From NCBI GenBank assembly GCA_045837725.1, contig JBEWZL010000109.1:310001-374000 (forward strand): 64,000 nucleotides of DNA, read 5' to 3'. Below are positions 7,218 to 64,000 of this stretch, in pieces. Every line of letters starts with the position of its first letter. The first letter of the stretch is position 1. The position numbers and the translations under genes were made by a program. The DNA comes from Vermamoeba vermiformis (lineage: Eukaryota). Below the pieces are notes generated by a model. That model saw only the letters and a list, made by a program, of their open reading frames with translations, did not search any database and was not told the origin of the DNA.

Positions 7218-8004
7218 TTAACAGCCGCAATTTATGTACAATTGCTGGGACGAGTATCTGGTGTAGACGGCGTTAGGTTGTCCCTGTGGTATGATGAATT
7301 CCAAATGCAATCCGTCATTGAAGTCGAAGTTAATCGGGAAACTCTTGGAAATCAGATGATTTGTTCCGCTAGAATCGAGACTTTCATTCACACATTCACT
7401 ATCCGGATCTTCGTAGATCGATTTGGACGTGTAAATGTCGTCTGCCGGCTCGTCACTCCAGAAGTCCGCGTAAGGAATGGTGACAGTGAATTCTAATGGT
7501 GGCAAGTACGTGTTGCTAGTGCCTGTTCATGAAGGCATTAAGTTAACTTCGGATCTCTGCACAATTTCGTCGTACCGTTCATTTGAATGTTTTTGAGCGT
7601 AACCCACTTCACGTCTGGACTGCTTCGTATATTCAGGTCCGAGATAAGTCCTTCAGCGTAAAAGTAATAGATCAAGCGGTTTGGTCCCGGTGTGTAAAGG
7701 TATCCGCGCAAGGAGGCAAAAGAACGACCAGGATCTGCGATTAATAGTCAGTATAGTTGGTCAACAAGCTCCCTACTTGCCGCTGGGGTTAACGAGCAGG
7801 CTCCGTTCTATCATGAGTAAAAGCCAGTCTTGCTGTCGGTTTTCAACAAAAAAATACCCTGTTGTTGGAAAGACCAGTAACTGAGAGTTAGAAATGGTGG
7901 TCAGCGTGTCGGTCGAGAGTTGATCCGGAGGACACAGCTGCGATCCAGCGCTCAGAACAAATAATAATCGCGAGCGTTGCGAGGTGAACAATACTGCGCT
8001 TCAT
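7218..8004 (-). CDS. Secreted protein of unknown function, paralog A (GC-AG intron; +1 break near 7970)
   Basis: Exons join through introns 7735-7780 and about 7523-7575. C-terminal EFTVTIPYADFWSD...LEFIIP...CGC matches the neighbouring gene. The start is uncertain: ATG 8004 needs a +1 fix, and a spliced alternative start is at 8122. Confidence 0.6.
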
Positions 8005-8384
8005 AATGACGCAAAACAATTGTTATGCACAACAGCTTACTATTAAAATGAACAAAAAATGAGCAGCATTTATGTAGTCCCCAGAGTTTTAATAAGCGAG
8101 GTAGATCGAGTTGGAAATTCATTCTAGTGATGCTAATATTTCCCAAGGTAATTTTATTATTCTAAATGGGTACGATAAACAAATAATTTTGATATTTATT
8201 GCTATATTACGCAAGTGGTAGTAATAACAATTTTACTTACCCGAGAAATCTGCCCCTAACCCTTACTTTCACCATCTTTTTATTAAACAAATAGTACAAT
8301 GATATTTAGCGAATTTTTAGCATCCTTTAAAAGATACTGCTCGAGCAAATTCTCCAATAATAATTGCAGGACTAATCCGAAACC

Positions 8385-9289
8385 ATGACTTCCTTTCGAA
8401 CATTAGTGTCTTTGTTCCTCATTATTGTTGTGTGTCAACAGTGCTTTGCGAATCAAGAGGTTAATAACGAGCAGTGCACAAGCACGTCGAATCCGCTATT
8501 CAATCAAACGATCCCTTGGCGAATAGCCCTCGAGAGCGTGGCCAATCTGTACATACCCTCCAACCAATCGTTAGTTATTTCTGACACTACTGGATGCTTC
8601 ACTTTTCAGTTGTACTTAGCTTCGTACCAAGGGATTCGAGGTTAGCCGGATGGCAGGCTTATATTCTTTCATTATTAATTGTCAAACGCAGCTATTGCGA
8701 CTTTCAATGACGCATGGGCAATTCTTTCTGGCAATTTGACCGATCACTGCAATGGAGGAGCGTCGTACAGTGTTTATGGTCGACAACACACGGATTATCC
8801 GTTGATCTTCGTTGACTCGGCAGCCGTGCAACACGCTACTTTAGTACCACTCTTTATTCTAGGTAATATAAGGATATATGTTGCTCAATCTTACGCAATA
8901 TTTCAGGTACCTACACTAACGGCTCGTACGAGAGCGAGTTCACTTTTACGACGGAAAGAGCCGACTTTTATTCGAATAGAAAGCCTTTCTATAAAGGGCA
9001 ACGCGATGAATTCCGCACGTTCAAGAACTCCAGTTGCACGGTGCGGAGTCGGGCGGACAGTGGGGGCAATTTTGTGTATTCTCAACCATTCCGCAGTGTA
9101 CTGGCATGGAACTCAGGTCCGCAATTAGAATTCATTTTCCCTGCCAACATTCAAGTCACCGCTTACTACTACCCTACTACGAATTATTACTCGCAGTGCC
9201 CTTGCGATGAGTATTCACTAGTTGCTACCAGCACCGCGAGTGAGGGCGTTACTTCTCTGCCCAATGTACCGGTACCACCGCCACTATAA
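8385..9289 (+). CDS. Secreted protein of unknown function, paralog B (3 exons)
   Basis: Signal peptide MTSFRTLVSLFLIIVVCQQCFA. Introns at about 8641-8690 and 8863-8906 give one continuous frame ending EFTFTTERADFYSN...LEFIFP...CPC...PVPPPL*. Confidence 0.75.
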
Positions 9290-18741: not shown

Positions 18742-20940
18742 TCAGAAGGCTACTAATAAGGACAAGGCATTAATAGCTAAAACTACTGCACTAACTTGAG
18801 CGGTGGTTGACAACGCGGAACGAGGTGCAACACTACCAGGAGGAATGTAACTAGGACCAATAGTGGTGTCAGGTACGTTTTGGTTGGAATTGGGTGTAAT
18901 AATAGGCACGGGTGCAACATACCCAGGGGGTTTGACCGGATCTGCTTCAATGGCCATCGTGTCCAGTGCGCCAGGAGTGCTGAACATGAGTGCGGAGGGG
19001 TGCATGGGATCAGGATCAAGTACTCTCATTGACACCTGTCCGTTGTTCTTTGACACGAGGTACACGGTGCCTGCCACGCGTGCATTGACAGTGATGTTGC
19101 CGCAGCCAGGCAACACAGCCACCACTTCGCGGTCGTTGCCTTGCTGAGCCCACGCGGTCAAGAGCCACTTGTTAGCATTAGGCATCTTGCGCGCGAGGAC
19201 GTAGACACCAGGGGAGATGTTAGGACCCTGTGGCTCGCCGACAATGTCGAGACAGTAGAGCGGAATAGGCTCGGTCAGCACGTTGAAGGGGTGAATGTAA
19301 CTGCCAGCCACGAGATCTCCTTCACGCAAATAATCTTCCAAGTGCGAGAAGAGCGCTTGAGCACGTGATATGTCCATGTACTGACGCAGCCACGGGTGCA
19401 GCGCTGTGCCCATTGGCTGATTACGGACTGCTTGGCCCTCGTACGTGCCGTTGTACACAAAGTAGCCGGATGCACCACCAAGACCACCTGAAGTAAACAT
19501 TATTTTAAGGAAGCCAGTCCATCGATCTTGTTCGGCAATAAGGTAGCTTGCAAGTGAATGACCGCCAACGCAAATCCACGCGTAAAAATTTTTTTGTCCA
19601 AATCGGATCTGGCCTCCGACTTCATTAAGCATCTTCCAGGTCATATCAGCAGGGTTGTATAGTTGATCTAAACCGGCCCATCCGCCATTACCATCATGGA
19701 AATAGATTTGTGGCTGCGGGATCGTCGAAACACCGATCTTGATAAAGTCTTCGTAATCTCGCTGCCATGCCGCCCAACCATTCCATCGTCCTCTATCAGA
19801 GCCATATGAATTAGTATAGAGGCCATAAAACACTTCGTCGTTGCGCCACGTAACGTTCTTTGTGGCTTCCTCGAAAATAATTCGTTCATGCATTGCCGCT
19901 GTTTGTGAGACCTTGCGCGTCAACGCCTCGTTCCTAGTCTCGTTAACATAAGAAGAATTTTTCCAACAATAAGGATCTAATTGGCCTGGGAACCCGATCG
20001 CTGAGATCAATTCCGGATCTTTCAAGTACGAACAGCCGAGCCAGCCGACCACACCAAGACCATATTCGCCATTGCTAGTTATAAATGATAGTGGGTATGT
20101 CTTCGACAGAGTAGCGGCGCATTCACCAATAGGTCTGGCAACGGATCTGACCCAATCTAACGGCGCCAAAGGACTCATATCCGGATTGTCGTTTGAGCCC
20201 AGTCTATTGCCATCCGAATCATGCAACCATACTGACTCTGGTATAGTCTGACCACTAGCTGCTGCGTCTTCAAGCCATTTGCCACCGGATCGAGCGTATC
20301 CAGGTAACGCTGCAGCGAATTGTGCGACAGTCTTATAACGACCGTTGCCAGCAACAGCAATAGCAAGAGCTTCAGTATTGTGACCTGCACTGTAGTCGGG
20401 AGGGCCACTAGCACCAGAGATGTCGCCTGTACAGTACGCCGGATAAATCGCCAGATCGAGTCCAAAGCCCCAGCGGTCAGCGAGTTCCAGTAGCAGCGGT
20501 ATACCATGTGATATCATACCGGTCAATGGGGGCATAGTATGACCGTCTCGGTACACTCCTGCGAGTGAATTCTTGAGATAATCCAAACCGGTGGATGCAT
20601 CTGTGGGAGTCCACGGATTAGCGAGCAAATTAACCACAGTTGATAGCTCAACGTTGTCCTTGGATGCAATGGTAAGAGTAAGAGTGAATGTATACTCTCC
20701 TGGCTCTATCATCGCCACCATAGTTTCGTTCGCGGTCGGATTAGCAATTGAAACGGGTCCCACGCCGCTCTCGACGCTCCATTTATATGACGTAGGAGCA
20801 TCTGATCCGCCATAATACAGCTTCACTTGGTTGATCGGGAGTTGGATTGAGCCAGTTGAGCCAGCAGAAATGTTGTCTGCATCCGTCGTTACAGAGCACA
20901 GAACTAACGCCCAGAATAGTACCAGATGTATCCGATGCAT
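18742..20940 (-). CDS. Intronless 732-aa secreted/surface protein with a PKD/Ig-like domain and a hydrophobic (GPI-like) C-terminus
   Basis: Signal peptide; SYKWSVESG...IANPTA...PGEYTFTLT PKD pattern; large Trp/Gly/Tyr-rich central domain; Pro/Ser/Thr linker followed by VSAVVLAINALSLLVAF*. Confidence 0.85.
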   Translation of the reverse strand: MHRIHLVLFWALVLCSVTTDADNISAGSTGSIQLPINQVKLYYGGSDAPTSYKWSVESGVGPVSIANPTANETMVAMIEPGEYTFTLTLTIASKDNVELSTVVNLLANPWTPTDASTGLDYLKNSLAGVYRDGHTMPPLTGMISHGIPLLLELADRWGFGLDLAIYPAYCTGDISGASGPPDYSAGHNTEALAIAVAGNGRYKTVAQFAAALPGYARSGGKWLEDAAASGQTIPESVWLHDSDGNRLGSNDNPDMSPLAPLDWVRSVARPIGECAATLSKTYPLSFITSNGEYGLGVVGWLGCSYLKDPELISAIGFPGQLDPYCWKNSSYVNETRNEALTRKVSQTAAMHERIIFEEATKNVTWRNDEVFYGLYTNSYGSDRGRWNGWAAWQRDYEDFIKIGVSTIPQPQIYFHDGNGGWAGLDQLYNPADMTWKMLNEVGGQIRFGQKNFYAWICVGGHSLASYLIAEQDRWTGFLKIMFTSGGLGGASGYFVYNGTYEGQAVRNQPMGTALHPWLRQYMDISRAQALFSHLEDYLREGDLVAGSYIHPFNVLTEPIPLYCLDIVGEPQGPNISPGVYVLARKMPNANKWLLTAWAQQGNDREVVAVLPGCGNITVNARVAGTVYLVSKNNGQVSMRVLDPDPMHPSALMFSTPGALDTMAIEADPVKPPGYVAPVPIITPNSNQNVPDTTIGPSYIPPGSVAPRSALSTTAQVSAVVLAINALSLLVAF

Positions 20941-44750: not shown

Positions 44751-46803
44751 TTACTGTTTTTTCTTCGACATCTTCTTGAATGCCGTATTGAAGCATGAAT
44801 AAATTAAGCCCATTACGACCCAAACACCGCCGACCAAGGCAAAAGAACGAGTAACAAAGTGGCTGAAGTATCGTTGTTGTCGCGTCACTTTTGCCATAAT
44901 AGGCGAAAAGTCATAACGGAAATAAACACCTATAATATTATCATATTATTAATATTTCATAAAATAAATACTTTAAGTGAGTTTAAGCGAGATCTGGCCT
45001 CGCAGATTGAATTTTGTTTGACACGTGTCACTTGGATGTGACGTGGCTCGTGCAGTAAATGAACGAAATCTATCGTAGTAAATCAAAGTACGTACCAGGT
45101 AAGTGCCAGTGCTTGCCACCAGGTACAACGACGTCAGTGTGCGAAGTGACCGAGTACTGATTGGTGTCCACCACGAGACTGCCACTCTCGTACTCCGTGG
45201 GCACTACTGTCACGAAATGAGTCGTGCGGAGCAATCCTAACAGCGGAATATTAGCACTAGTATAGCTTAAAACTATGAAACCACGATCAATTTGACTAAG
45301 GCTCGACCCGGGTTCGCGTGATAAAATTTTTGCAAAGATTAAGAGTGATTGCGGACTTACCAGTCTTGTTCGACTTCCAGTTGTCGAGAGGATTTTCCAT
45401 GCCAGGATAGCTGTCACCAAATCGGAAGTAAATGATGGTGTGTTGCAGGTCAAACTGCATCAACTCTTCGGTAGTGAACGGCATGTGGTGCACGTGATGA
45501 CCGTGACCACCGTGACCCTTGTTCGGAGCTGCGTCCGAGAGCAATGTGCATGTTGCCTTTGACTTTTCGCACGTGCACTGTGCCCGTAATTTGACAGCCG
45601 ACATTGTTCGGATCTTTCTCACGTTGACACTACGAATGACACGTGTCAACAGCTGCTCATTATAGAAAGAGGACAGCAATGCAATGTACGTACCAAGTAG
45701 TGACCGCTAGCTTTGTTACGCGCATCATGTTCAGGGATATTTTTGTTGCGCCAGTACGTGACGACTTGTTCGCAGTTACAACACTCATCGCCCGTGTTGG
45801 TTTTGATGCTAAATATAGAACATTAGTAATTGAGTTGTTCCTCAATACTAAGAAATACTATTGACGTCTTGGGGCATATTGGGATGTCTAATACTAAGCC
45901 CGATGTGTCCATAAGAAGGTGTGTAAAGTACTTACTGAAGGATGCTCTTGACAGTGGCCCACACGCTCGACACGCACAACATGCAGTACTTCTCGCCGAG
46001 GATGTAGCCGCGCGAACTCAAGTCGTACTTTGTGATGTCTTTCGTGACCGCTAGTTGCGAGTCTGATGTCTCGTCTACAACGTCCACGTTCACGTCTAAA
46101 TAGAGATATTAATGTTAAGGCCTCCGATCACAACGATTATAAAGAATATTTAGCGTTAACGCTAAGCACGCATAATGTGCTTTTGATGCAACAGATCGTG
46201 TGCCGGATCTTTTATTAAATTTCAAAAATTATGAGATATGAACGCTAAGTCTAATGACTATAATAAAGGATATATGCATGACTTACCAGGGCATTTAACT
46301 TTAGGAAAAGAGATTGAGAATGCGATCGGCACCGTTGGTTTGCGAGATGTATCGACGTACAACGAGCCAGTTGTCTCCATTGTCGTATAATCAAAATATT
46401 CGCTCAACAAGAGGAATGTGATGAGAAAAGTAGCGAGGAATGTCACTGAAGAATTGAAGAGCTGTTAGTAAAATAGATCACGCTGAAAAGGTCCATTAAT
46501 TTATGATATTGATCTCCATAATATTTTTTTAGGCAATATTATACTTGATGAATAATTTTTTGAATGGTTTTTTGGCGTAATATGCGGCGTTAGATATTTA
46601 TAAATTTTGAATAATTAAAACTGCCATCTGTCTCAAAAATGAATTCTAAACTAATTAATTATAGAAAATAGCATTTATATTATTTACATACCAATGCCTC
46701 CATATGAAGAACGAACTTGAATTTCAGATTCGGTTTTGGGATAAAAATCGAACCTTCGCGCAGCAGCCAAGTATGGCCTAATCTTCTCTAATGCATTATT
46801 CAT
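44751..46803 (-). CDS. ERGIC/Erv41-Erv46 family protein (+1 break near 45533)
   Basis: RRFDFYPKT...RSSYGG, LYVDTSR, ISFPKVKC, GCQITGTVHVRKVKGNMHIALG, FGDSYPGMENPLD, TNQYSVT, RYDFSPI-like, ALVGGVW, KKQ* tail. Confidence 0.88.
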
Positions 46804-48109: not shown

Positions 48110-48203
48110 AACCGGCACAAAAGCACTACCTCTTCTCCCACAACAAAATTTAGCCACATCCAACGCTACGAACAAATGAGTCAGATATGCTCCTCTATCT
48201 ATT

Positions 48204-48617: not shown

Positions 48618-51600
48618 TTACTCAAACTTCTTTAGCATTTCCATAATTTCATCAAAACTTGGTCTATCGTTTGGTACTTCAGACCAGCAACGCTCAATCA
48701 AGTTGAGCCAGTTCTATAAATCACATCATATTAGTCACCTAGTCATCAAAACATCATGTCTCGCACGTACCTTGTCCGAGATGTTCGAATGCAGTGGCGG
48801 TCTCAATCGACCAGTTGCAACAGCAATGCCTGCTTCCATCGGATCCCACTCGTCAAATGGAATTTCACCCCTATTGAACGTTAATACAGCACTACTAACT
48901 GAGTACCAATCAACGTACTCGCTCATCATTTCCCACACGACAATTGCAAAGCTGTACACGTCAGACTTTTCGTTGTATGTCTCGTGGCGTAAGATCTCAG
49001 GTGCTGTCCAAGCAATGGTGCCCGCACTGTACTCGTCATTAGCAATCAGTCTATTATGACTGGGGCAATGAATAAGACGTACCTGGTCATCGTTGACGCA
49101 TGTGACTTGACACGAGCGATGCCGAAATCAGCGACTTTGACGTTCAAGTTCTCGTCGAGCTGAGTTAAGACAGTATAATTAGTTCAAGAATATGACAGTA
49201 GATGACGGCTAATATTGACGTACCAAAATATTAAATGATTTAAGGTCTCTGTGAATGATATTGTTCTGGTGCAAGTACGACATGCCCTTGGCAATGTCAT
49301 ACGCGAATTCAACGAGCTGTTGTTTGTCCAAGTTGCCTCTGTTCTCAATAAGGTAATCGTGGAGATTTTGCGGGAGATATTCCATCACAATTGCATTGGG
49401 TTCGGTGCAGTAGCCGTAAAAACTGACCAAATTAGGATGCTTCAATTGACTAAAAATAAAACGTTAAGTATTGATTTTATAACAATTAATATATGAACAA
49501 TGTTACCTTAATAATTCAACTTCTGTCTTAAAGTCCTGAATGGATTTAGTTTTGGATTTTTCTTTTGAGACAGTGCGGATCTGTTTGACAGCGACAATCG
49601 TGTTCTTATAAATACCACGCCGTACTTGTGAGAAAAATCCTTTGCCGACAATAGTTTGCAGTTCAATCTCGGAGTAATCGATCAATCGAACTTTTTCTAG
49701 CGGCAATTTCACCGTGTTTGCTGTCCACACGTCGTTCAGGAAATTTCCCGCTTCATTTCTACCGCCAAGTACGAACAACTTGGAGCCCAATTTGCTCAAT
49801 GTATGACCGTATCTAATACAGACATTAATAATAGGACCCTATATCTATTTACATATGACGTACCGTTCAGAAGGTGCTTCGTTACAACGGATCTTCATCC
49901 ATTCAATTTCCTCGTCATCGCTCAACGCACTAGCAGTCCTCTCGCTCATTTTGTTTGGTTTCACTGAACCAATCACTGGCGAGTTGACACCGCTCGCGCT
50001 GGTGTTATTGTTATTATTTACATTTTGTGCCAGTGTTGAGGCGACAGTAGGACTCGTGCCCAAACTGCCCGTGGAACTCGGACCTGAAGAAGAATTCAAC
50101 TGATCACGTGGCACGAGCGGGTAATTGTGATTAACAAAATTGATCTCGCTGTTGATCTCGTCCTTATTGAAGCCTTCATTGTGCCGCTTGCCAATGACAA
50201 TCTTCCACACGTCCTGAATACACCCATTAATAAGCTAATCATAACTAATACTATTGTAGGTATCTCTAGTGTTACCTTGGTGGTACTGCCGTTCTTCCTT
50301 TTGCCACCATAAATCAGCACTGACGTGCCCAATGTGACGACTTGATGGTAGGCCATGCGCGGGACAGTAGCTTTCAACGAGACTTGTTTCCACTCGGCGT
50401 TTTCAAAATTGAGACAATACAAGTCGTTGAAATAGTTGTCTTCGTCGTGACCTCCAAGGACCAACATTCGATTGCCGACCACTGCTGCTGAATGGCCTCT
50501 GCGACCTTTAGGAATATCACCTGTGGTCTTCATCACCGTGCACTTGTTATTATCGGCTATTATGGCGCATTAGTACTGGATTCATATTCAATATGAGTCT
50601 AGTGTTACTTACAGACGTCAATCAGGTACACGGTGTTGTCGTACTTTTTGCCATCGAATCCACCGAACAGCACGAGATTATTCTCATATCGTACTAGTGA
50701 ATGACCACACAGTGCCGGCAGTGCCACACCAGTAACACGTGGATTGGACCAGTGCGTTGTTTCTGTGCGATAGAGGTCAGCCAAGTGAACCACTAACACG
50801 CACTAAAAATTCGCGGAAAATTAACTAAAAAATAAACGTACCATCACGAATAATAGCTAATACAAACATCTTGGAAGACATTTGATTATTGACCATGCCT
50901 CCATAAATATAAATCTTCTCGCCTATTCTACAAGCGGCGTGTTGCGAGATCAGCTTTGGTGCAACACCGGTTTCATTGGCAGGTGTTAGCTTTTGAGTCT
51001 CTAATCATCCAACATCATTAATATGATCCTTATATAGTAAATTTATCCTAGTATTAAACTTTAAAATCAAAAGCAAACGTTATGTAACGGCATTAAACTT
51101 GAACCGTCAAACGTTAATTAATTTAAGTATTTAACGGCAATATCAATTATAATAGCAACAATTTGCGTATTAATGATATAAATTCCGTATTGGTGAACGA
51201 GTGTGATTCGTGTGGATCTGGAATATAATTCGAGATTACATACCAGGATTAAAAAACTCAATACCAGCAGGAGTTCCATCTTGCGTATCACCACCTATTA
51301 AAATCAACACGTTGCCATATGAAATTGTTGTGTGCATGGCGCGCGGCTTCAAAATATTGATTTTTTGGCTGTACCAATCGAGCTCATCTGAATAAGAATG
51401 AATTTAATCGCAAAGATTTTTAATAAATAGTACGATATATGGTTAATTATATTTTTGTTAATAAATTTAGTCAGATCCCGTTGCAATTTAATAGTAAATA
51501 TTCAATGAACTGGTGAACAAGAAAAAACACGGGACATATAATTAAATATTTTTAAGTATGTACCTGAGGCATAAGCTTTTCTTGCGCGTTCTTCTATTCG

Positions 51601-52317: not shown

Positions 52318-52671
52318 CCGTTATTTAATAGCATTCATATTGTTGTTGTATCTCGCTTCGGGGTGAAAAGACAAATAAAAATAGAGCGAAATCACACCTC
52401 GTCAATCACCTGTCAAGTCGCTCCACGAATTCTATCGTCTCTTCGAAGCCGTTAAACGTATGATTATTTCGGGCGTGTTGATAAGCGAACAGAATCTTTT
52501 GATTTAAAAAGAATATCTTTGTTAAATCCACAAAAATTTCTACCTACCTGTAATACGATCCGTTGTCGCCTTGCGTTTGCTAGCAACACTTTGATATTCA
52601 TTAATCAGTACCATTTTTTGCAATACAGAGGTGCATTTTAAATTAGAGCAAGATCCAGGCAAGAGAATTTT

Positions 52672-53777
52672 TTATTCATCGCCCTTTCGCTTGAACAGCT
52701 TCAAGTAATTCAATCCCAAGTTAAAATTTTCTGGAATTCCGACTTCGCCAGGCTGCACAAAGCTGTTTAACGGCACATCTTCAATTACGAAGCCTAACTC
52801 TTCCGCTCTTTTGAATAAAAATGCTTCAGTGTTCTTAGCACGCGTTTGGAACGACAAAATAAACATTGAATTTTTGTCTTTTTTAAGCAGCCTATCGATA
52901 GTAATCAATAGTGGCTCAATGCTGTCACTCCAAAACCTATTCAAAAACGGATCGTCAAAGAAAACACTTGCACTGCTTAAAGTAGCAGCTTCTAATGACA
53001 ATAGAGTGCCATAATATAGTTGATATATATTGAATAAAGGATACACTATGTCAGCTCCAATAATGTAGTCAAATGAATGATCTTTAAATTGCGACATTTG
53101 TTCTTCGTTACCCCACGCTAGCTGCTTGCACAAACATTCATTGCCTATCATTATAATAGTAACGTTATTAAATAATGTGCTATAGTGACTTCATGCAAAT
53201 AGTGCGTGCCTGTTTGATTTTGTTCGACGTTTTTTTCGAGCAGTTCGAGCACGATTTTGTTGAAGTCAGTCAACGTTGTGCTCTTAGCATAATGGCTCAT
53301 TAATAGACCAGGCAGACCAGTCCCCGAGCCCAACTAGAATATGTTATTAGAAATAGTGTTTGGTTAGCTAGATAACGAGCTTATGTACCTCTAACAGGAC
53401 CTTGTCCTTGAATAGCCGTGCATTTTTTTGAATGTATTGACACAAGACTTTAGCGGCGATCCAAACAACCTATAGATTTATATTAATACAGTACGTTAAT
53501 ATAACGCGATCGTGCTTACTTGGCCTGTCAAGTCAAAATCGGCTGCGATGATAAAAATTAATTTAAAATTGAATGAGATGATTATTTGGAGATCTACTTA
53601 CTGGTCGCTGAGTCCAATATATCTAGGTTAATTTTAATATTATTGTCGAAATTAAATTCTTTCGTGACATAACTAAACAGATCGCGATCAAAACTTGTTC
53701 GACCAATACAAACGTATATTAATCTCGTCTTACTTTGTATTTAAGAAAAATGCCTCGAGTGTATTATCGTCATCCAT
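52672..53777 (-). CDS. METTL21/family-16 protein lysine methyltransferase
   Basis: TDFDLTGQVVWIAA, VLLELGSGTGLPG, TLTDFN, LAWG, FDYIIGADIVF. Confidence 0.9.
52937..53044 (-). other. U12-type (minor) GT-AG intron
   Basis: 5' site GTATCCTTT; TTCTTTGAC branch-like element near the AG. Removal restores GADIVFWSD. Confidence 0.75.
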
Positions 53778-53924
53778 CTTTTATATGAGTTGTGTGATCC
53801 TGATCGGCCGCGCATAAAATTAATAAAATTTTCGCGCCTTTTTGATTTGATTGATCTTTTTGTCCTCCGCACAGTTTTTAACTCAATTTTGACTGTACAG
53901 CACCTGTTTATATTGTAAATAACT

Positions 53925-55211
53925 ATGGCCCAAGTTAGCGCACGCGTACCATTAGGCAACAAAACAAATCAGCTGAAAGGCCAAGTGCTGGCTTCGAAGC
54001 AAGAAGTTACAGAAAGCTCCTGTTAAGGTACGCGGTCTAATAATTATTTCGTTTATAATTTTTTTATTAAACGAGTGTGCTTTGATTGCTAAGCTCTCAA
54101 CAAGATCGCGGTTTAATTTTTTTTCATTCTTGCCACTAATAATCTGGGCAAGTTTGCTCTTATAACTGACTGGCCGTAACATAAACTTATATAATATTAA
54201 ATTATTTGTATCAGGATTTGCAAACTACAACTAAAAAACGACCGCTCGAATCTGACAAAGAAAACGAGAACGTTCAACCTGTGACTAAGAAGCAAAAGGT
54301 TATTGGCGAAACAGTAGCTGCTATTCTTAAAGCTCCTCCTACTAAGAAGAAGCCAACTATCGCAGATCGTAAGTCTCAAAACCTGGCCAGATGTTTTCAA
54401 ATTCATTTAAACTGCGCCTTATCGACTCTATTTGGTTCTAAATATATTATTATAGCCGAGGGCCTTATTAAACACTTGCAAGAAGTTGCTACTAAGAGCC
54501 AAGAAGAGATCTCGAACATTAAACAAAAGAGCAACAAAGATTCAGAGCTTTCAGAACTGCATGCTCAGCTCGCTTCTCTTCGAAATCAACTTACTATTGC
54601 CCGACGAAACAATCAAGTACGTCAATAAGCATATATAACTCATATAACCCGAGATCTTTTGCCTTCAATAATAATAGTACTAATTTTCTGGATTGGTCGC
54701 GACGCCTCGTGTATTAAATATACGTATATATTAAATAGCACCTTAACACCACTTTTGTCGCACCGTTAAGCGTCTTTTTGATGTTTACAATTCACACGTA
54801 CTGGCGAAGTACATCCGTTGAAATTACATGCGCAATTAAGTTCTTAAATATACATTTAATGCGAACTAATGTAATACTTGTAGGAGGGCATCGACTATAA
54901 GGCTAAGTACGAAGCTAAGAAAGCTCAGTGCAGACAATTGAAGAATAACTTGGAAGAACTGAGCATACTTTACGACGTAAGTGTGCCATTCAATCGTCTA
55001 ATACGTGTACTTATATCGGGATTATATATAGACTGCTATGTCGGACTTGAACGCACTTCAAAAGCAAGATCAGAAAGAGATCCAAAAGGATCAGATCAAG
55101 AAGAGCATTCTGGCGCAACTTAAACTCGACAAACTCCGCGACGAGGGCTCTATTGTTGACGAAGAAGATGAGTATGACTCGCAAGATGATGAACTAGTTT
55201 TTCAGAATTAG
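53925..55211 (+). CDS. Coiled-coil protein with D-box and KEN box (+1 break near 54000 or alternative donor)
   Basis: RVPLGNKTN, DKENEN, basic clusters, coiled-coil exons and an acidic C-terminus. Confidence 0.65.
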
Positions 55212-55510
55212 TTGCGGATCGCCATTTGTTCGCGATTCTATTTTTGTTCAGAAATTGCGTAGCAGTAATATGTGTACGTAAGTTCGTTGTAATATATTAA
55301 ATCAAGAAATATTTTAGATTTCAAAACTTTGTGTAGTAGTGTACTGTGTATTGTGGGAATTGTTTTTTGTTCCCAAGCGGGTTAATTCGGGTGTCCCCCG
55401 TGTAACCATTTAAAAATTCACTGACGATTCGTCAATATCTTGGTGACACAAAACGAAAGCAAAAGGATTGACAGCACTTTCGTTGATTACATTGTATTTG
55501 GATCGCTACA

Positions 55511-56627
55511 ATGCCCTCAACACCAATTAATGGCATCAGCAAAAAGTATCGCCTAGTATTTGTGTTAATTCTACTCTTCGTAGTAATTGGTAAGTGAATT
55601 AGAATTGCACGGTAAATGTATGAATACAAGTTTCAGTTTCTTGTTTAAAAAAGAACACAAAATATTGGATCTCTTGTCGATGGTATGAAATTATTTATTG
55701 AATGATTTGAAGATTTAATTCATTAAATGATGTTAGAATAATCTCAGATCTTCAAATCTGAAAACTAACGCAAGATGCCACCGATCGCATTTTCTAACAT
55801 ATACTAACTGTTATTCCTCACAGCGGGCTATCAACTTCTTAAGAATAGTGATTTTTCTAGTGAGGTCTCCACTAGAAATGTTCAAAGAAATTGCGTGGTG
55901 TCACTGATGACGGATCCAGCGTTCACTCGCTACGCTGAAGTCCTGGGCTATTCAATGATGAAACAAAATACCGCAGCGAAGAAAATTATGATGGTATTAA
56001 GAGATAAACACACCGAGACGCTTCAGGACTACTCTTGAAAAAGTGGGATGGACGACGATCCCTGTAGATCCGATCAAGCAGCCAGGCGAACAGGCCAAGA
56101 CAGAGAGATATCGACTTCTCTATACAAAGTTGCGAATATGGACGCTGACGAATGAATGTGACAGAGCAGTGTATTTGGATCTGGATACGTTAGTTCTCAA
56201 AAACTTCGAGGAATTATTTGAAATCCTGCCAGACACCGTAAAATATGCAGCGACACCCGATAATTGGTTTGGCACGTACACCTTTGGAATTAATGCCGGA
56301 GTTTTCGTTTGTAAGCCGGATCAAGCAGAATTTGACCGCCTGATGACTGCTACGCAAAACACGAGTCATTTAGACAAAGACTCCGTTGAACAAAGCTTTC
56401 TCAGCTGGTACTACGGTTTAACAATGATTAGACTGCCATTCATATACAACGCCAACGTTGCTATTGAAATTTACAACAAAGACGACTGGATCAGCTTAAA
56501 AGACGACATCAAGATAATTCATTTCACTATATACAAGCCCATTGGCAAGGGAAGAACCGAATCCGAGCCTAATTTGATGTGGGACAAAGCCGAAAAAGAA
56601 TTCCTAGAATGGAGCAAGAACAATTAA
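55511..56627 (+). CDS. Glycosyltransferase family 8 (glycogenin-like), type II membrane protein (+1 break near 56024)
   Basis: N-terminal TM; YTKLRIW, AVYLDLDTLV, INAGVFVCKP, EQSFLS, LPFIYN, IIHF..KP. Confidence 0.88.
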
Positions 56628-56883
56628 GTCCTAAAAAATACAAAACAATGAGCGTTAAGTCTGTTCAATGTATAATAAAATGAAGCAAGACATGCACACT
56701 ATATTACTTCATCGAAGCTTTCGCGAAGTTGGTTCGCACTTATGCAACGAAGGTTAGTTTCTTGCTTTCATTTAGGAAACAAGAAGCTCGGTACCAGCTT
56801 TGTCGGCGAATTCTTGCACGCTTAGAAATTTCACTCTCGTAACTTGCACAACAAGTATTTATTAATACTTACACGTTTACGTT

Positions 56884-58921
56884 CTAACTGATTGCACAAC
56901 CTTCTTTTTGATTCGTACAAGTAGCTGCATGAAATTCGTATCGTGAACTGAGAACGTTTTTTTGACACGAGACACACTGGCGATACAATTGCGAAGAGCG
57001 ACGCTGTCGAATTTCAAGACGATGATGTAATCGGCTAATGAGGTAATAATAACGATTGATCTTCATGTAACATGTCGTCTCTGTTCTCCCCAGCACGTCG
57101 CTCAGGACAATCGTTTGCTTGGTGATCTGCCAAGTAAAACGCTGCAATGTACGTACGACAAAATTGACATTCTAACTTTCGCATTGGGCACAAATCTAAT
57201 CTGTGACTGACGTAGCTCCTTTCGGTGATCAGAACTTGACAGTCTGGGCACTCAAACGGTACTTCAGGAACACAATTTTTCTCGTGCTCTGTCAGCACAC
57301 TCGCCATGAATGACTTTTGACAAATATTGCAAGGTACTTTTCGTTGCAGGCATTGAGTTGACATATGCTGATTGTGCATGTCCGCAGTGACGAGATTTTT
57401 GCAATAAGGGCACGGCATTAGTCTCTTTGGGCACTGACCTAACGCGTGATTGACGGATACAAGTGCTTTGCATATTTTGCACACACTTCTCTTGGGACAC
57501 CATGAAGACTTGTGAACGTCGAGAGCGCTGAACGAGATTAATGCCGCGCACCACTCACATTGGATTGTTCGCTTGGGACATGACTGCAAGTGTTGCGGCA
57601 CATCTTTGCTCAACACTTCTTCCTTGCAACCATATTTGCATAGCGTTAGTTTGAACGGACATTCCGTTTCGTGAGTTTTGTCGTCCGGTTTAATTTTCTC
57701 GTTGCAGCCTAGGTTTGGACAAGACTTTGTTCTGAACTGGCATGACTTCGTATGCTCTGTCAATAGTCTTCTTTGTACTTGGACTGAACAGTGTTCATAC
57801 GTGCAACTGAGCGGTTCAAACGGACAACTATTGACATGACTTGTATGATACTCTTTGAATGTCATATCGGGTGCATTGCATCCACGAGCACATGGGACTA
57901 GTCTGTGAATGAAATATTAAGCTTTCGTGTTTAGTCATTGAAATTTAACGTACCTTAAATCACATTGCTGTGCCTCGTGGTAGTCGAGGTCTTTCCGAGC
58001 GAATTTAGTTCCACAATAGCGACAAGGTGACGTATTCATGGTACAAAAGTGGGCTAGATGGTTTTCTAGAGATTTTCGCGGTATTCGTTGTTGACACTTT
58101 TGACACCCGACCAGAGAACCATTCCGTCGGAATTCACATTTGATTTTGTGTTGTTCGATCTCACTGACTGTCGACCAAGCACCGCAGCCATCATAATCGC
58201 ACTGAATAGGCTTCTTAGCTATCAATCTTCTGATTGGCTCGTTGGCTGTCCACCTGACGATCTTTCTGCAGTTCGGACATTTACGGCCATTGTGTTCAAT
58301 GCACTGTTGACAAAAGATATTCTTACAGCAATCGCCTTCTACTGCTTCTTTAATTATCTCAAAGCAGATTGCGCAATTAAGTTCTTCTAATGTCAGTCGT
58401 CCAAATCTGGATTCGTCGTTTTGATCTACTCGTTGCACTTCCTTTGGTGCTGGGTTAACAAGATTCTGATTCGAAGAGTTGTGATCTATCACATAGTCAT
58501 TATTATTCAGGGTATTAACGTTGTTGAGCGAATTTGTTTTCAATTCTTTGAGATCGGCACTATTTAATTGCGCACAAAGGACTCTCAGTAGAAATTCTGA
58601 TGGCCTAACCCAATCGCCAGATTGTTTTGTTAAGATAATGCATATTGGTTTGAATTCAGGCTCTTGTACAAGAGCAGGAAGTTTACCTGTTAAAAAAACA
58701 AAAGAATTAAATTCAATTATTTAATTATTTTGTTGGTTGTAATTACCATTAAATGTAGATTGTACGCCATAAAATTGTTTATAGTAGTACGGAAGACTTT
58801 CCAGTCGTACTTCCTCTAATCCGTCAACTAGAAAACACTTCACTATCACCCGCCAATATCTGTCAGTTTCGGCGGTAGTGTTCGAGCGTACTAGCTTAGC
58901 AATGAACTCTAAATATTCCAT
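56884..58921 (-). CDS. LOTUS-like + RING + TRAF-type zinc fingers + CaaX protein, copy 1
   Basis: N-terminal winged-helix-like exon, LNCAICFEII..CCKNIFCQQC..CPNCR, repeated CxxC..H...CP units, ends CAIS*. Needs one +1 shift near 57040. Confidence 0.8.
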
Positions 58922-58999
58922 TTCCTTTGTTATGTTAACACAGACTCTTTCGTATAAAAGAATCAAACGGTGGAACAAAAATGACTTTTTGCTTTTAAG

Positions 59000-61598
59000 T
59001 TAACTTATAATACAGCCACTATTACATTGGTGCGATTCTAACGCCTTTAAAGTCATGACGTTCGAGCACTTTTCACACGTCACTAGTCGTTTCGGACATT
59101 GTTCCTCGTGTGCATCTAAATCACGAGCGTAAACTGACTTGGGGCAATGAGAGCACGTGACTATTCGAAAGCCACAATCATAGAGCTGATGTACTCCAAG
59201 AACTCGTGCAGAATATCGTTGTCCGCATTTACACGCTACGCGACGTTCCGTACATTTGTGCGATTTGTGGTGCGGCAGCTCACTAGCCGTTAGAACATCG
59301 TCGCAATCGCCACATCGCACGTATCTATATGCACAAGCGTGCGAGAGATGTGCCGACAATGTGCGTGCATAGAGGTACCCATCACACTTGGGACACTTTA
59401 CGATGCGTTCGGAACATTGGCGTGACTGGTGGTCTGATAGGGAGCAATGAGCCACTGTTTCCTTGCATTTGCTGCACTTGATTGGTCGGTGGCTGCAAGT
59501 CTCGGATTGATGTGCTGGCAACAGACGAGCCAGGACTTGCACATGGCACTTGGAACACTTCACGATTCGTTCGGGGCATTTGTTTGAGTGGGAGGCTAAT
59601 AGATATTGGGCCAGGACTTCGTTGCATCGGTTACACTGCACTGGGCGGTACTTGCATCTTTCTTCCAGATGAGATTCTAATGAACTGACCGAGCACTGAA
59701 CGTTGCACTTGGGACACCGTACATTTCGTTCCGGACAGTCTTCTTCGTCGTGTTCGTCCATGTCCTCTGCAAAGATATCTTGGTGACACATCTCGCACTC
59801 GATTACCCGCCTGGGACATCGACTAGACATGTGGCGATACAAATTGCAAGCGTCGACTTTGATTCCACACTTTGAACATTTGACTCTTCGCTTAGGACAG
59901 CGGGAGGATAGATGCTGTTCGATCAGCGCATAAGCCATCGTTTGGTCACAAAGATCACATTCAACCGTTCGTGACGGACACTCTTCCATGTGATCCTCCA
60001 GATCTATCTTTTTGAACTCGTTGTCGCAGTAAGGGCAGTCCTCGGGCATATGGCCGGCAATGATGACTTTTAATCTTGTATTTGAGAAGTTCTGTGCCAC
60101 AGCCATAGGAGCATTCGACGAGCATGTAACGACAGACTGCGACGTGTTTGTGCCACGCAGATTTCTGTGTCAGTTTGTACTCGACTTCGCAGCCTCGTGC
60201 TCTGTGCTGACACTGTAATGCTGAGTGCTGGCACTCTTGAAGATGATCGGCCATTCGTCTCCGTTGTACGCGTACTGAACATTTTTGATTCGTACATTTG
60301 ATGGGCTGATGTGAGCACCTATTGAAGTGGCTGTCAATGTACTCCTTGTAAGTCATATGTTCGCCGCATCCATGCACACAAGCAACACGTCTGAGTAGAG
60401 TAGCTGTTAGCACCGCTGAGTTTTAGGTCCTTCAACTTACCTGAATTCACAGTCCTGTTCCTCGTGTTTGGCAAGGTCTTTTCTCATAATCCTGCAGTTG
60501 CAGCTTGAACACGGTACGAGGACCATTTCACATATGTCTGATAGGTGCTCATCGACATCTCGTCGCACAATCATCGAGCCGACAAGCACGGCATGGTACC
60601 TCGTTCATTTCACAGGTGTTGGATAAGTGCTCGTCCATCAATCTGTGCATGATTCGTTGTTGACACTTTTGACAGCTGACGAGCAAGTTCTCGGGATTGA
60701 ATTCGCAATTGACTTTGTGCTGTTCAATCTCACTGACTGTTGACCATACTATGCACTCTTCGTATTCACATTGAACGGGTATTTTGCCAACTAAACGTCT
60801 GATTGGCTCGTTGGCAGTCCATTCAACGATCTTTCGGCAGTTCGGACATTTTCGGCCATTTTGTTCGATGCATGGCAAACAAAAGATGTTCTTGCAGCAA
60901 TTGCCTTCTACCGCTTCTTTCAGTAAGTCGAAACAGATGCCGCAATTGAGTTCTTCCAAAGTCAGTCGTCCTATCCTGGCTTCATAATTTTGATCAGAGT
61001 TCTCTGGGTTCTCTTTGTCTTTTTGTCCAATTTCCTCGAGAGCATCTCTTGCAAAGGGATTCGCTGAATTTATTATAGTCGAGGCATTATTGTTATTGAG
61101 AACATTTGAAAGAATTATTTCTTCCGAATCCGATGCTTTTTCTTTTTGTGCGAGTACTGCAAAAGGATTACTCAAATTGCTTTCAATATTGTTATTAAAG
61201 CTGTTGCTTGTAATGTTCTGATGAAGACTTGCCAGCGGCGCTCTTAAAACTTGCTTCAAAAATTCTGTGGGGTAAACCCAGATCACTGTATATACTTTTT
61301 TCGTGCGGCATATTGCTTTAAATTCGGGTTCTTGGAGAAGAGCGGAAAGTTTGCCTGGATTCGATTGAAAGCAATCATGAGTTATTTAATTTTTAATATT
61401 AGTTTATAATATCGGAATATTACCGTCATAGTTTGGAGGCATTCCATAACATTGCGTGAAATAGTTGGGCAAAGTTCCAAGCTGGATTTGTTCCGATCTG
61501 TCAACAAGAAAACAATTGACGATTGTCCGCCAATATCTCTCTTTATCGGTTTTAACATGAGGGTTGACTATCCTTGTAATAAATTCTAAAAGCTCCAT
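59000..61598 (-). CDS. LOTUS-like + RING + TRAF-type zinc fingers + CaaX protein, copy 2
   Basis: Same exon layout as copy 1; ends CIIS*. +1 breaks at about 60581 and 60056. Confidence 0.8.
60588..60891. repeat. Near-identical direct duplicate of about 63690-64000
   Basis: Long exact shared runs such as GATTCGTTGTTGACACTTTTGACAGCTGACGAGCAAGTTCTCGGGATTGAA and ATCTTTCGGCAGTTCGGACATTTTCGGCCATTTTGTTCGATGCATGGCAAACAAAAGATGTTCTT. Confidence 0.9.
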
Positions 61599-61705
61599 CA
61601 CCTCCAACTGATGAACAGATCTGCGTTGTTACATGTCGAAAAAGATTAAAATAAAAGAAATAGGAGAATTCAGGCAACATTTACTTTTAGTGAAAACAGC
61701 GACAT

Positions 61706-64000
61706 TTACTGCACTGCACAGTTAGTATTATTGTTTTTCGAACACTCCACTACGTGTGCGTCGTATTCCGAGTAACTGTTATAAGCCTCGTTACAATACG
61801 GACACAAACGGATGCAGTGATGTGAAGCCATCTTTTTGTACGACATTTGCTCCCCGCACTCCTTGCATTCAATGGTACGTTCGGGACAAGTATCCAAGTC
61901 GTGCCATGATTTAAAACTCGCCAAGACCAACTCGTGACACTTGTAACACGTCACACGCCGCTGAATGCAAGCGCTGCTCTTATGACTAGCCATCATCGAG
62001 GCAAACATCTTCTCATTGCAATCGTTGCATTCGATGAGCAGTCTCGGACACTGATTTCTGTGGCCGTTGTAATTGCGAGCAGTGAATGAGCCGTTGCAGT
62101 CAGGGCACGTCAAGAGCTGTTCGGGGCAGTTGCTCTCGTGCACCGCCAGAGAGGCTAGCTCCACATATCCGCGACACCATTTGCACGGCCACTTCCCGCA
62201 CTGAGTCAAATGTTTGTCCAAGTCACCGGCGACGAAGGAGTTTCTTACATTTCTTGCACGCCAACTGACGCTTCGGGCACAAACCTGACACGTGCCAGTA
62301 GTAATCACTGACAGAGACTTGCTGTTGGCACATCGAGCATGTCTTTCGTTGTTTCGGGCATTGAAACGTAACATGATGATTGTACAGGTAGGCACTGATT
62401 TGTACTTGACACTTCTCGCACGTAACTATTCTAGCCGTGCAGTGGTTTGCCAAGTGATCCTCGCACTCACTTGGTGTGATCAACTTGCGACACTTTTGAC
62501 ACGGAGTCTTGCGTCGAGGACAGTCTTGATTAGTGTGCTGCGAGAGCTCAGTGGTGACCAGTTGCTGACCGCACTGTTGACACGCGACCATTCTTCTGCG
62601 GCATTGGCTTGACACGTGTTGGTCGTAATTGCGGGCCGTAACATTTTCTTTGCATTGTGAGCACTCTAACATCCGTTTAGGACAGCGCTTCACGTGCTCT
62701 TGATAATCACTCGCGGCGTAGGATATTTTGCACGTGGCACATGGCAGTACACGTCTTGGACACTGAGTTGACAAGTGCTTGTTGTAGTCGTCGACAGGTA
62801 CTTGCTCTTTGCACTTCGGACACGGCACTTGGCGCTTTGAACAGTCTTTTGATCGGTGCTGATCACGATAGCTCGCAGTGAATCGTTCTTTGCAAAGGTC
62901 ACATGTCACGACTCGTCCTGGGCATTGAGTAGACATGTGTAGCTCGATGAAGTTGGCAGCGTACTGTCCCTGACACCCGTTACATGTTACTTGTCGTCTC
63001 GGGCATTGGCTTGACATGTGTTCGTCGAGCACATTGAATGCAACAGACCTGTGACATTGTTGACATGATACTCGTCGCATAGGACACTGTTGAAGGTGAA
63101 TTTTTTCCGTGTTTGGTTTAAATATCGTCCCACATTGATTGGGACAACTAATGCGTCTTTCTGGGCACTTCTCCAAGTGAACGTTTGCGTACATTTTCTT
63201 GAAAGCTCCGTGGCACTCGGGACATGTGAGTGGCATGTGATCGCATTGGTGCTCTTTGAGATCACGTCTGAGCATTCCTTGCTTACAACCGTAGTTGCAC
63301 GACACCAGCTTAAAGTCGCACTTGTCGAGGTGCTTTCTCAATGCATTCTTGTTTCCCTTCAAAATCATCACCGGACATCCTCGTGTGCTGTTGGGGCAAG
63401 GCACTTCGGAGTATGCGCAAGCTTGAACATGTTTTTGCAAGAACTGCCTTTGAACTTCAACAGTGCACTTGTCATTCGTGCATTTGGTTAACTGATACGG
63501 ACAGGTGCTTAAATGACGACTAATATACTCCTTGTAGGTCATTTGTCCCACGCATCCATTGTCGCATATTACACGTCTATTAAACCACCAAATTAGTAAA
63601 AAACCGGTCGGAGATTTCCGTTGGAATACCTCAATTCACACTGCTGGGTCTCGTGATTGGCGATGTCTTTTCTGACGAGCATGTAGCCACAAGCACGGCA
63701 TGGTACCTTGACCATTTCACAGATGTTGGACAGATGTTCTTCGATCAATCTGCGCATGATTCGTTGTTGACACTTTTGACAGCTGACGAGCAAGTTCTCG
63801 GGATTGAACTCGCACTTGACACGATGTTGTTCGATCTCACTGACCGTTGACCAAGCATTGCAATCTTTGAACTCGCATTGAACGGGCTTTTTTCTGATCA
63901 ATCGTCTGATTGGCTCGTTGGCAGTCCATTCAACAATCTTTCGGCAGTTCGGACATTTTCGGCCATTTTGTTCGATGCATGGCAAACAAAAGATGTTCTT
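61706..64000 (-). CDS. RING + TRAF-type zinc fingers + CaaX protein, copy 3 (5' part outside window)
   Basis: CIEQNGRKCPNCRKIVEWTANEPIRRL as in copy 2; longest zinc-finger run; ends CAVQ*. +1 break at about 62240. Confidence 0.8.

What the first reader, a model, noticed from the sequence alone, without database searches (positions are those of the whole stretch)
7970..62243. Eight +1 frame breaks in otherwise intact genes, each repairable by deleting one coding-strand C
Seen: breaks at about 7970 (CTC G[C]GA TTA; removal gives signal peptide MKRSIVHLATLGLLFVLSAG), 45533 (ERGIC, GGA [C] GCA), 54000 (AAG [C] AAG), 56024 (GT8, CTT [C] AGG), 57040, 60056 (TGC [C] GGC), 60581 (TGT [C] GGC; the paralog has CRACG) and 62240. 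All are +1 and I found no -1 breaks. They occur on both strands, mostly outside long homopolymers, and conserved motifs are intact on both sides. Inference: most likely insertion-biased assembly error, but C-deletion RNA editing or widespread +1 ribosomal frameshifting (as in Euplotes) is possible. The GT8 and 54000 sites end in TCT-TGA and TGT-TAA, resembling stop-dependent shift sites, whereas 60056 and 60581 cannot be stop-coupled. Caveats: the extra base is not uniquely identified at most sites, and 7970 and 54000 have splice-based alternatives.
Basis: partly seen in the sequence, partly recalled or inferred. Interest (0 to 1): 0.75.

Follow-up and report, generated by a model that had tools for sequence, protein, structure and literature searches.

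The report
Extra-base frame breaks, probably assembly errors
Several genes in this stretch of a microbial eukaryote's genome are each broken by one surplus base, but related DNA and RNA lack that base wherever it could be checked, so the breaks are most likely assembly errors and not unusual biology.

Summary
All eight frame changes are in the sequence, and each needs one base skipped (+1). Six are solid: 45533, 54010, about 56027-56030, 60053-60056, 60581-60584 and 62237-62240. Those at 7970 and about 57035-57105 are weaker. A coding-potential screen that allows for canonical introns found no missing-base (-1) break. Every other frame change in the window has an intron candidate starting GTA.

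External evidence was available for four sites and agrees at all four. At 54010, DNA contigs of two runs of the same species label and a spliced RNA contig of a close relative all lack the C. RNA contigs spanning 60056 and 62240 are each exactly one letter shorter than the window. A 96 %-identical protein from another assembly reads straight through the GT8 break.

There is no shared motif, no stop codon at the shift point and no homopolymer. The claim "always a coding-strand C" is not established.

Best reading is insertion-type consensus errors clustered at 45-62 kb (confidence about 0.8). Real private mutations remain possible. Frameshifting or RNA editing is very unlikely.

The parts
7952..8004 (-). 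s1: putative first exon of an orphan secreted-protein gene. The frame changes 0 to +1 somewhere after the ATG at 8004.
   Evidence: Searches show that the ATG frame stops after 39 codons, and that the +1 frame is open but has no ATG. Coding score is weak in both frames. No homologue or read evidence is available. This is the weakest of the eight.
45533..45536 (-). s2: four letters (GGAC on the coding strand) stand where one codon is expected, inside exon 45360-45629 of a COPIIcoated_ERV (ERGIC/Erv41-46 type) gene.
   Evidence: The exon borders come from spliced X4 contig joints. The spliced reading changes frame inside the exon. Pfam PF07970 matches downstream at E 7e-7. The coding score switches 0 to +1. 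Whether the reads carry the base was not visible (hidden rows).
54010..54010 (+). s3: a surplus C in exon 1 of a small gene (start about 53983; intron about 54028-54214).
   Evidence: table 4 reports 'left out 1' at 54010 in X1 (102.1 of 102.1) and X2 (454.2 of 454.2). The X4 RNA joint 54009>54213 carries 15 letters equal to window 54011-54025. By my reading of the frames, exon 1 without the C joins exon 2 in frame.
56027..56030 (+). s4: four letters (GACT) stand where one codon is expected in a family-8 glycosyltransferase gene (55808-56627).
   Evidence: P0001 (96 % identity, 239 aa) is continuous. tblastn places its residues up to Gln-40 in frame +2 ending at 56026, and the rest in frame +3. 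Pfam PF01501 and glycogenin structures match the downstream part.
57035..57105 (-). s5: 0 to +1 change near the 3' end of RING/zf-TRAF gene C (58957-56884). The position is not resolved.
   Evidence: The frame-0 stop is at 57035. The +1 ORF ends in a Cys-x-x-x terminus like those of paralogues A and B. There is no GTA donor in the interval, so no canonical intron. The coding-score switch is weak.
60053..60056 (-). s6: four letters (CGGC) stand where one codon is expected in RING/zf-TRAF gene B (about 61600-59000).
   Evidence: Searches show the break, and 0 intron candidates were found. X4 contig record 21 covers 59352-60336 (985 positions) with 984 letters and 1 gap.
60581..60584 (-). s7: four letters (TGTC) stand where a Cys codon is expected in gene B, directly before a conserved Gly.
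   Evidence: The paralogues and P0009 (70 % identity) read Cys-Gly straight through. tblastn changes frame between 60582 and 60571. The only intron candidate would remove the conserved Cys pair. No close-relative or read evidence is available.
62237..62240 (-). s8: four letters (CTCC) stand where one codon is expected in RING/zf-TRAF gene A (64000-61706).
   Evidence: Searches show the break, and 0 intron candidates were found. X4 contig record 22 covers 61784-63576 (1793 positions) with 1792 letters and 1 gap. zf-TRAF matches on both sides.
46492..46492 (.). A further single surplus base (T) relative to the reads. Its coding status is not established.
   Evidence: table 4 shows it left out in X1 (107.8 of 107.8) and X2 (520.1 of 520.1). 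It lies upstream of the visible ERV exons, and that gene's N-terminal exons were not mapped.
48737..48737 (.). A further single surplus base (A) relative to the reads, inside an intron of a protein-kinase gene.
   Evidence: table 4 shows it left out in X1 (93.9 of 93.9) and X2 (476.2 of 476.2). I read the intron by eye.

Best explanation
The breaks are single-base insertion errors in the consensus of this assembly, concentrated in its 45-62 kb part. The organism's genes are intact, and nothing special happens at the RNA or ribosome level.

Shown: the surplus base is absent from independent DNA and RNA at 54010. One base is absent from a relative's transcripts across 60056 and across 62240. A close relative's GT8 gene is uninterrupted.

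Inferred: the same explanation holds for 45533, 60581, about 57060 and 7970, and the base is also absent from the DNA of the strain that was assembled.

How the errors arose is not known. Candidates are an unpolished long-read consensus or gap fill, or misalignment at allelic variants in a collapsed assembly. The latter is described for another eukaryote in PMC8445201 (passages read).
For: (1): 'left out 1' at 54010 in X1 (102.1 of 102.1) and X2 (454.2 of 454.2). The X4 spliced contig also lacks it.
(2), table 8: X4 records 21 and 22 are each exactly one letter shorter than the window over 985 and 1793 positions spanning s6 and s8, with a single gap each.
(3): P0001, 96 % identical and from another assembly, reads through s4.
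(4) 8 of 8 breaks are +1, and no -1 break was detected. Among the 12 shown rows table 4, 1-base differences are 6 'left out' against 2 'put in'. The 3 seen in both X1 and X2 are all 'left out'.
(5) The same kind of surplus base occurs outside the mapped exons and is not C: T at 46492 and A at 48737.
(6) There is no shared motif, no known +1 shift motif and no homopolymer.
(7) The broken genes show no other decay. With canonical introns removed they read through, and a 2.4-kb A2M-like gene at 1479-3924 has no break at all.
(8) All breaks are exactly one inserted base. In my judgement that is unlike a natural indel spectrum. Differences of 2, 12 and 20 bases were listed only at places I did not identify as coding.
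Against: No reads of the assembled strain itself were identified. X1 and X2 differ from the window at about 1 % of positions, mostly transitions, so they are another strain or haplotype. A real private insertion would look the same.

For s1, s2, s5 and s7 no close-relative or read evidence was visible: 56 indel rows were hidden. For s6 and s8 the position of the single gap in the X4 contigs was not shown. X4 bears another organism label and is about 2 % divergent. RNA raw reads of the same species label (X17) had essentially no depth at any site.

Substitution differences between window and reads look like natural polymorphism, so the assembly is not generally poor. Clustering of 7 of 8 breaks in 17 kb is unexplained. 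It would also fit a locally degenerate haplotype.
Confidence: 0.8

Rival explanations
1. These are real private, or haplotype-specific, one-base insertions in the sequenced strain. The genes would be young pseudogenes or null alleles, perhaps on a decaying haplotype of a polyploid or asexual protist whose other copy is intact.
For: X1 and X2 are not the assembled strain, with about 1 % mostly transition differences, so absence of the base there does not prove an error. Four of the eight breaks lie in three tandem paralogues, a gene class that often decays. The breaks are clustered at 45-62 kb. Real allele-specific 1-bp insertions are documented in another protist (PMC8445201, passages).
Against: All 8 are single-base insertions, with no deletion, no longer indel and no in-frame stop in the same genes. 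A conserved ER-Golgi transport gene and a GT8 gene are hit as well as the paralogues. Breaks in coding sequence are not depleted relative to comparable surplus bases outside exons, by a rough count.
Confidence: 0.13
2. This is programmed +1 ribosomal frameshifting, or quadruplet decoding. The base would be present in DNA and mRNA, and the ribosome would skip it.
For: All breaks are +1, and the conserved sequence resumes at once in the +1 frame. At s4 a shift at the TCT-TGA three codons further on would give a product of the same length.
Against: The defining stop codon at the shift point is absent. Frame-0 stops lie about 2-27 codons downstream at the constrained sites, by my reading. Euplotes sites use internal stop codons (abstracts of PMC10235951 and 10.1101/2022.10.12.511967, seen in the listing). 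None of the 4 known motifs I tested occurs, and no word is shared beyond random expectation. The sites are not conserved: relatives lack the base at s3 and s4, and very probably at s6 and s8. At s4 the +1 frame encodes exactly the relative's Thr-Leu, so the insertion lies upstream of the stop.
Confidence: 0.03
3. This is RNA editing that deletes one nucleotide (a C) from nuclear transcripts.
For: The X4 transcripts lack the base at s3, and lack one base across each of s6 and s8.
Against: At s3 the DNA contigs of two runs also lack it, so no editing is needed there. X4 is a different organism label with no matched DNA. The C identity is established at only 1 of 8 sites, and other surplus bases are T and A. 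From recall, not from any call, no nuclear nucleotide-deletion editing system is known to me.
Confidence: 0.01
4. Some sites are unrecognised splicing events and not frame breaks. This applies to s1 and s5 only.
For: s1 and s5 have weak coding-score switches, no homologue fixes the junction, and introns are frequent and short here.
Against: All 13 of 13 X4-supported introns start with GTA and are 50-191 nt long. The s5 interval has no GTA donor. The one donor-like site I saw by eye at s1 (sequence) gives an early stop. For s2, s6 and s8, RNA contigs run through without a joint.
Confidence: 0.03

Closest known systems
Consensus indel errors in long-read or collapsed-haplotype genome assemblies that split genes artificially (for example Trypanosoma brucei Lister 427, PMC8445201; passages read)
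   Same: Single-base indels inside otherwise intact ORFs, absent from independent reads and relatives, unrelated to any motif, also present outside exons, and locally clustered.
   Different: Here only insertions are seen and none is at a homopolymer. The sequencing technology and the reads behind this assembly are unknown to me, so the error mechanism is inferred.
Euplotes stop-codon-dependent +1 (and +2) ribosomal frameshifting (PMC4759687, PMC10235951, PMC12275403; titles and starts of abstracts seen)
   Same: Many genes need a +1 shift for a full-length product.
   Different: Euplotes shifts at internal stop codons. Here no stop sits at the shift point, no motif is shared, and relatives lack the surplus base.
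Slippery-site +1 frameshifting of the yeast Ty1 and antizyme type
   Same: The direction of the shift.
   Different: The heptamers CTTAGGC and TCCTGA are absent at 8 of 8 sites. Such sites are conserved among relatives, and these are not.
Insertion/deletion RNA editing of Physarum and kinetoplastid mitochondria
   Same: A transcript that differs from the genome record by single nucleotides.
   Different: Those systems are mitochondrial. These are spliced nuclear genes, and at the one site with DNA evidence the DNA itself lacks the base.

Membership tests
Assembly consensus insertion error | The surplus base is absent from independent sequencing reads of the same species | tested here: met
   Met at 1 of 8 sites directly: 54010, in X1 and X2 DNA contigs and an X4 RNA contig. 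It is indirect at 2 more: X4 contigs are one letter short across s6 and s8. It was not visible at the other 5.
Assembly consensus insertion error | The surplus base is absent from the reads of the very sample that was assembled | not testable with these tools
   No run could be identified as the assembly's source. X1 and X2 differ at about 1 % of positions, and no genome is held.
Assembly consensus insertion error | Close relatives have the uninterrupted frame | tested here: met
   s4: P0001 at 96 % identity is continuous. s7 has only a 70 % homologue, P0009. No close orthologue was found for genes A and B.
Assembly consensus insertion error | It is independent of coding context, with the same lesion outside exons and no motif | tested here: met
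   Surplus T at 46492 and surplus A at 48737. No shared word beyond random expectation.
Euplotes-type +1 programmed frameshifting | A stop codon of the old frame sits at the shift site (AAA-TAA or AAA-TAG type) | tested here: not met
   AAATAA and AAATAG are absent at 8 of 8 sites. Frame-0 stops lie about 2-27 codons after the constrained break points, by my reading.
Euplotes-type +1 programmed frameshifting | The surplus base is present in both DNA and mRNA, and conserved in close relatives | tested here: not met
   It is absent from DNA and RNA contigs at 54010 and absent in the relative at s4.
Nucleotide-deletion RNA editing | The base is present in DNA but absent from RNA of the same individual | tested here: inconclusive
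   No matched DNA and RNA pair exists. At 54010 the DNA of another sample already lacks the base. X17 RNA reads had no depth at the sites.
Pseudogene or null allele | Further signs of decay, such as in-frame stops, deletions and larger indels | tested here: not met
   None was seen in the six affected genes beyond the +1 breaks.

The most novel reading that the evidence does not exclude
In the sequenced strain the surplus bases are really in the DNA of five or six expressed genes, and full-length proteins are still made. That would happen by motif-independent +1 decoding or by removal of the base from the transcript, as a strain-specific tolerance of insertion frameshifts in a free-living protist.
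Probability: 0.03. Interest if true: 0.85.

Novelty: not a real feature. Interest (0 to 1): 0.07.

Why it matters
If the breaks were real and decoded, this would be a second lineage after Euplotes with widespread non-triplet decoding, or the first nuclear nucleotide-deletion editing. The evidence points the other way. The practical consequence is that gene models in this part of the assembly (ERV/ERGIC-type transporter, GT8 glycosyltransferase, three RING/zf-TRAF paralogues and a small gene at 53983-55208) will be truncated or split unless the assembly is polished. Frame breaks elsewhere in this genome should not be read as biology without read support.

Tried and rejected
(1) Whole genome: none is held, so no genome-wide tally of indels was possible.

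(2) RNA evidence from the same species label: no listed holder is on record as RNA. The raw-read RNA run X17 laid only 91 reads, with practically no depth at any site. This says nothing on expression.

(3) Read-laying output: 56 indel rows and 650 contig pieces were not shown, and the cap is 1 call. The state of X1, X2 and X4 at s2, s4, s5 and s7 therefore stayed invisible, as did the exact gap positions at s6 and s8.

(4) Protein word search with gene A (450 aa): no hit at E <= 1e-20 in the 247-788 aa range. The length window was probably too narrow for a full-length orthologue, so this search was poorly used.

(5) The metagenome-contig scan with gene B exon 2 gave 12 loci, all distant RING matches at 28-53 % identity. 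The genome-contig scan with P0001 gave no relative. The representative search with the gene B C-terminus gave a best identity of 37 % among the 150 listed. The cluster look-up of P0001 gave no accession or name.

(6) The upstream 76 aa of the GT8 gene gave no Pfam hit and no significant PDB hit. Continuity was shown with P0001-P0004 by tblastn instead.

(7) Other apparent frame changes were rejected as breaks because GTA...AG introns of about 50-77 nt join the frames. These are at about 600, 1445, 1990, 2570, 2730, 35280, 37470, 38100 and about 55000 (read by eye).

(8) In one search the codon anchors for s1 and s3 were off by one or more bases. Those two rows are not used.

(9) An idea I could not test: several sites look as if both alleles of a synonymous third-position variant were kept in tandem (TGT/TGC at s7, GGA/GGC at s2).

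(10) Earlier notes of this scan hold nothing for this genome or for this sequence.
Full report
WHAT THE WINDOW IS. The window is nuclear DNA of a microbial eukaryote. It has about 40 % G+C and many short introns. Spliced contigs of run X4 define 13 introns of 50-191 nt, and all 13 begin with GTA and end in AG. No whole genome is held, and earlier notes of this scan hold nothing on this genome. I did not identify the organism. Parts of the stretch are also held by water, aquifer and soil metagenome runs that I did not lay.

THE OBSERVATION. Three-frame translation around the eight coordinates shows, at 8 of 8, that the reading with conserved sequence continues in the frame reached by skipping one base.

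The affected genes are:
- An ER-to-Golgi vesicle transporter of the COPIIcoated_ERV family (s2). Pfam PF07970 matches just downstream of the break.
- A small gene at 53983-55208 (s3).
- A family-8 glycosyltransferase (s4). PF01501 and glycogenin structures match downstream.
- Three tandem paralogues on the minus strand, each with an N-terminal region, a RING finger, a long array of TRAF-type zinc fingers and a Cys-x-x-x end (s5 in gene C, s6 and s7 in gene B, s8 in gene A).
- An orphan gene with an N-terminal hydrophobic stretch (s1).

The codon-usage score switches cleanly from frame 0 to +1 at s2, s4, s6, s7 and s8. It is uninformative at s1, s3 and s5.

INTRONS AS AN ALTERNATIVE. I trained a codon log-odds score on 21 long ORFs. 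I then listed all neighbouring coding segments on one strand that differ in frame, and asked for a GTA...AG intron of 45-400 nt that joins them.
- s6 and s8 have 0 candidates.
- s7 has one candidate, which would delete the conserved Cys pair.
- s4 has five candidates of 85-112 nt, which I rejected because P0001 aligns without a gap across that stretch.
- The s5 interval holds no GTA donor.
- For s2, s6 and s8, the X4 RNA contigs run through the site without a joint.

Every other frame change in the window has a canonical short intron candidate. These include several that at first looked like extra +1 or -1 breaks, at about 600, 1445, 1990, 2570, 2730, 35280, 37470, 38100 and 55000. Removing five such introns from the A2M-like gene gives one open frame from 1479 to the stop at 3924.

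So the sign bias is real: 8 breaks are +1 (6 secure) and none is -1. This screen can miss breaks in short or weakly coding exons.

WHERE EXACTLY, AND WHICH BASE.
By my reading of the frames, exon 1 without it ends in a full codon at the GTACG donor and joins exon 2 in frame.
- s4: the 96 %-identical P0001 aligns in frame +2 up to the Gln codon ending at 56026, and in frame +3 from the Thr-Leu codons. Four letters (56027-56030) therefore stand for one residue.
- s6, s7, s8 and s2: the module spacing of the zinc fingers, the paralogues, P0009 and the ERV profile each confine the surplus base to a four-letter word. Two to four different deletions give an acceptable residue at each.

A C is among the options at all six constrained sites. 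With four letters per site, that is not beyond chance by my rough estimate of about 0.1. Two other surplus bases relative to both DNA runs are T (46492) and A (48737, in a kinase-gene intron).

INDEPENDENT SEQUENCE. One search for runs and one lay were allowed. I laid 44500-64000 (7 of the 8 sites) on X1 and X2 (DNA contigs, one sample, same species label as the best holder), X4 (contigs, another organism label) and X17 (RNA raw reads). X1 and X2 differ from the window at 179 and 206 places, mostly transitions, so they are a different strain or haplotype and not the assembly's source. X4 is spliced, hence RNA, and is about 2 % divergent.

Results:
- At 54010 one base is left out in X1 (102.1 of 102.1) and X2 (454.2 of 454.2). 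The X4 contig joins 54009 to 54213 through 15 letters that equal window 54011-54025, so it lacks the C too.
- X4 record 21 covers 59352-60336 (985 positions) with 984 letters and one gap.
- X4 record 22 covers 61784-63576 (1793 positions) with 1792 letters and one gap.

These two pieces span s6 and s8. A single missing base anywhere else in those exons would leave the transcript doubly out of frame, so I infer that the gaps are at the breaks. Their positions were not printed.

Fifty-six indel rows were hidden. The shown rows all have summed depth of at least about 465, so rows at s2, s4, s5 and s7 could exist unseen. X17 had no useful depth at the sites.

HOMOLOGUES.
- The GT8 query found P0001 (NCBI-derived, 2662-nt contig, 96 % identity, 239 aa), which is uninterrupted across s4. 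Its cluster carries no accession or name.
- Gene B exon 2 found only P0009 (70 %), which is also uninterrupted across the s7 position.
- Gene A gave nothing in the length range searched.
- The gene B C-terminus had no representative above 37 % identity among the 150 listed.
- Scans of metagenome contigs and of prokaryote genome contigs gave no close DNA.

TESTS OF THE EXOTIC READINGS. There is no word shared by the eight contexts beyond what random positions of the same region give, in 500 draws. None of the four known +1 motifs I tested is present. There is no homopolymer at the candidate bases. Frame-0 stops lie about 2-27 codons after the constrained break points. In Euplotes, by contrast, internal stop codons specify the shift (abstracts seen). 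At s4 the codons just before the TGA read Thr-Leu in the +1 frame, exactly as in P0001, so the insertion is upstream of the stop. Programmed sites would be conserved in relatives 1-4 % away, and these are not. Editing is not needed at 54010, because DNA already lacks the base there.

MOST LIKELY EXPLANATION. These are insertion-type consensus errors (confidence about 0.8). Long-read assemblies are known to carry indels that truncate ORFs, and collapsed assemblies gain indels near allelic variants (PMC8445201, passages read). The other points in favour are:
- All lesions are exactly one inserted base.
- The genes show no other decay.
- By my rough estimate about 64 % of 44.5-64 kb is coding. 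It carries 6-7 breaks, against at least 2-5 visible surplus bases outside exons, so coding sequence is not spared.

UNEXPLAINED. Seven of eight breaks lie in 45.5-62.3 kb and none or one in the first 45 kb. This points to a local difference in how the assembly was built, or, less likely, to a locally degenerate haplotype.

MAIN RESIDUAL DOUBT. No reads of the assembled strain were available, so real private insertions cannot be excluded (about 0.13).

EARLIER NOTES. Earlier notes of this scan from other genomes describe similar one-base insertions judged to be assembly errors. I did not test them, and they did not change my reading.

VERDICT. The 'always C' and 'stop-coupled' details are not.

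Noticed in passing
window 45500-62300 versus 1-45000: Seven of the eight frame breaks lie in a 17-kb stretch. The first 45 kb holds many genes, including a 2.4-kb A2M-like ORF that reads through after intron removal, yet it has none or one break. This suggests a local difference in assembly quality or origin.
   Followed up: partly
window 56884-64000, minus strand: Three tandem paralogous genes sit here. Each has a conserved N-terminal exon, a RING finger, 10 or more TRAF-type zinc-finger modules and a C-terminal Cys-x-x-x (CAVQ, CIIS, CAIS) that looks like a prenylation box; that label is recalled, not tested. No homologue above 37 % identity appeared among the 150 best of 1.84 billion representatives for the gene B C-terminus.
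   Followed up: partly
window 1-3924, plus strand: An alpha-2-macroglobulin/thioester-protein-like gene with several short introns. The thioester-site region reads GCFEQ, where I recall GCGEQ as the usual motif. The family was judged by eye; no Pfam search was run on it.
   Followed up: no
window 53983-55208, plus strand: The small three-exon gene hit by s3 has an R-x-x-L-x-x-x-x-N stretch and a KEN triplet near its N-terminus, followed by a coiled-coil-like part. From recall this resembles substrates of the anaphase-promoting complex. It was not tested.
   Followed up: no
window 47787 and 49287-49317: Strain relations are mosaic. At 47787 all three runs of the species label (X1, X2, X17) differ from the window while X4 agrees with it. 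At 49287-49317 X1 and X2 differ while X4 and X17 agree. This fits a recombining population or mixed haplotypes.
   Followed up: no
window 56487-57010: The X2 contig differs here by a 20-base deletion plus three one-base indels within about 250 nt of intergenic DNA between the GT8 gene and gene C. This looks like a divergent haplotype.
   Followed up: no
window 18745-20940 (minus) and 32097-33575 (plus): Two large intact ORFs: a 732-aa protein with a K319L-like PKD domain, and a 492-aa piece with an XPG_I nuclease domain.
   Followed up: no
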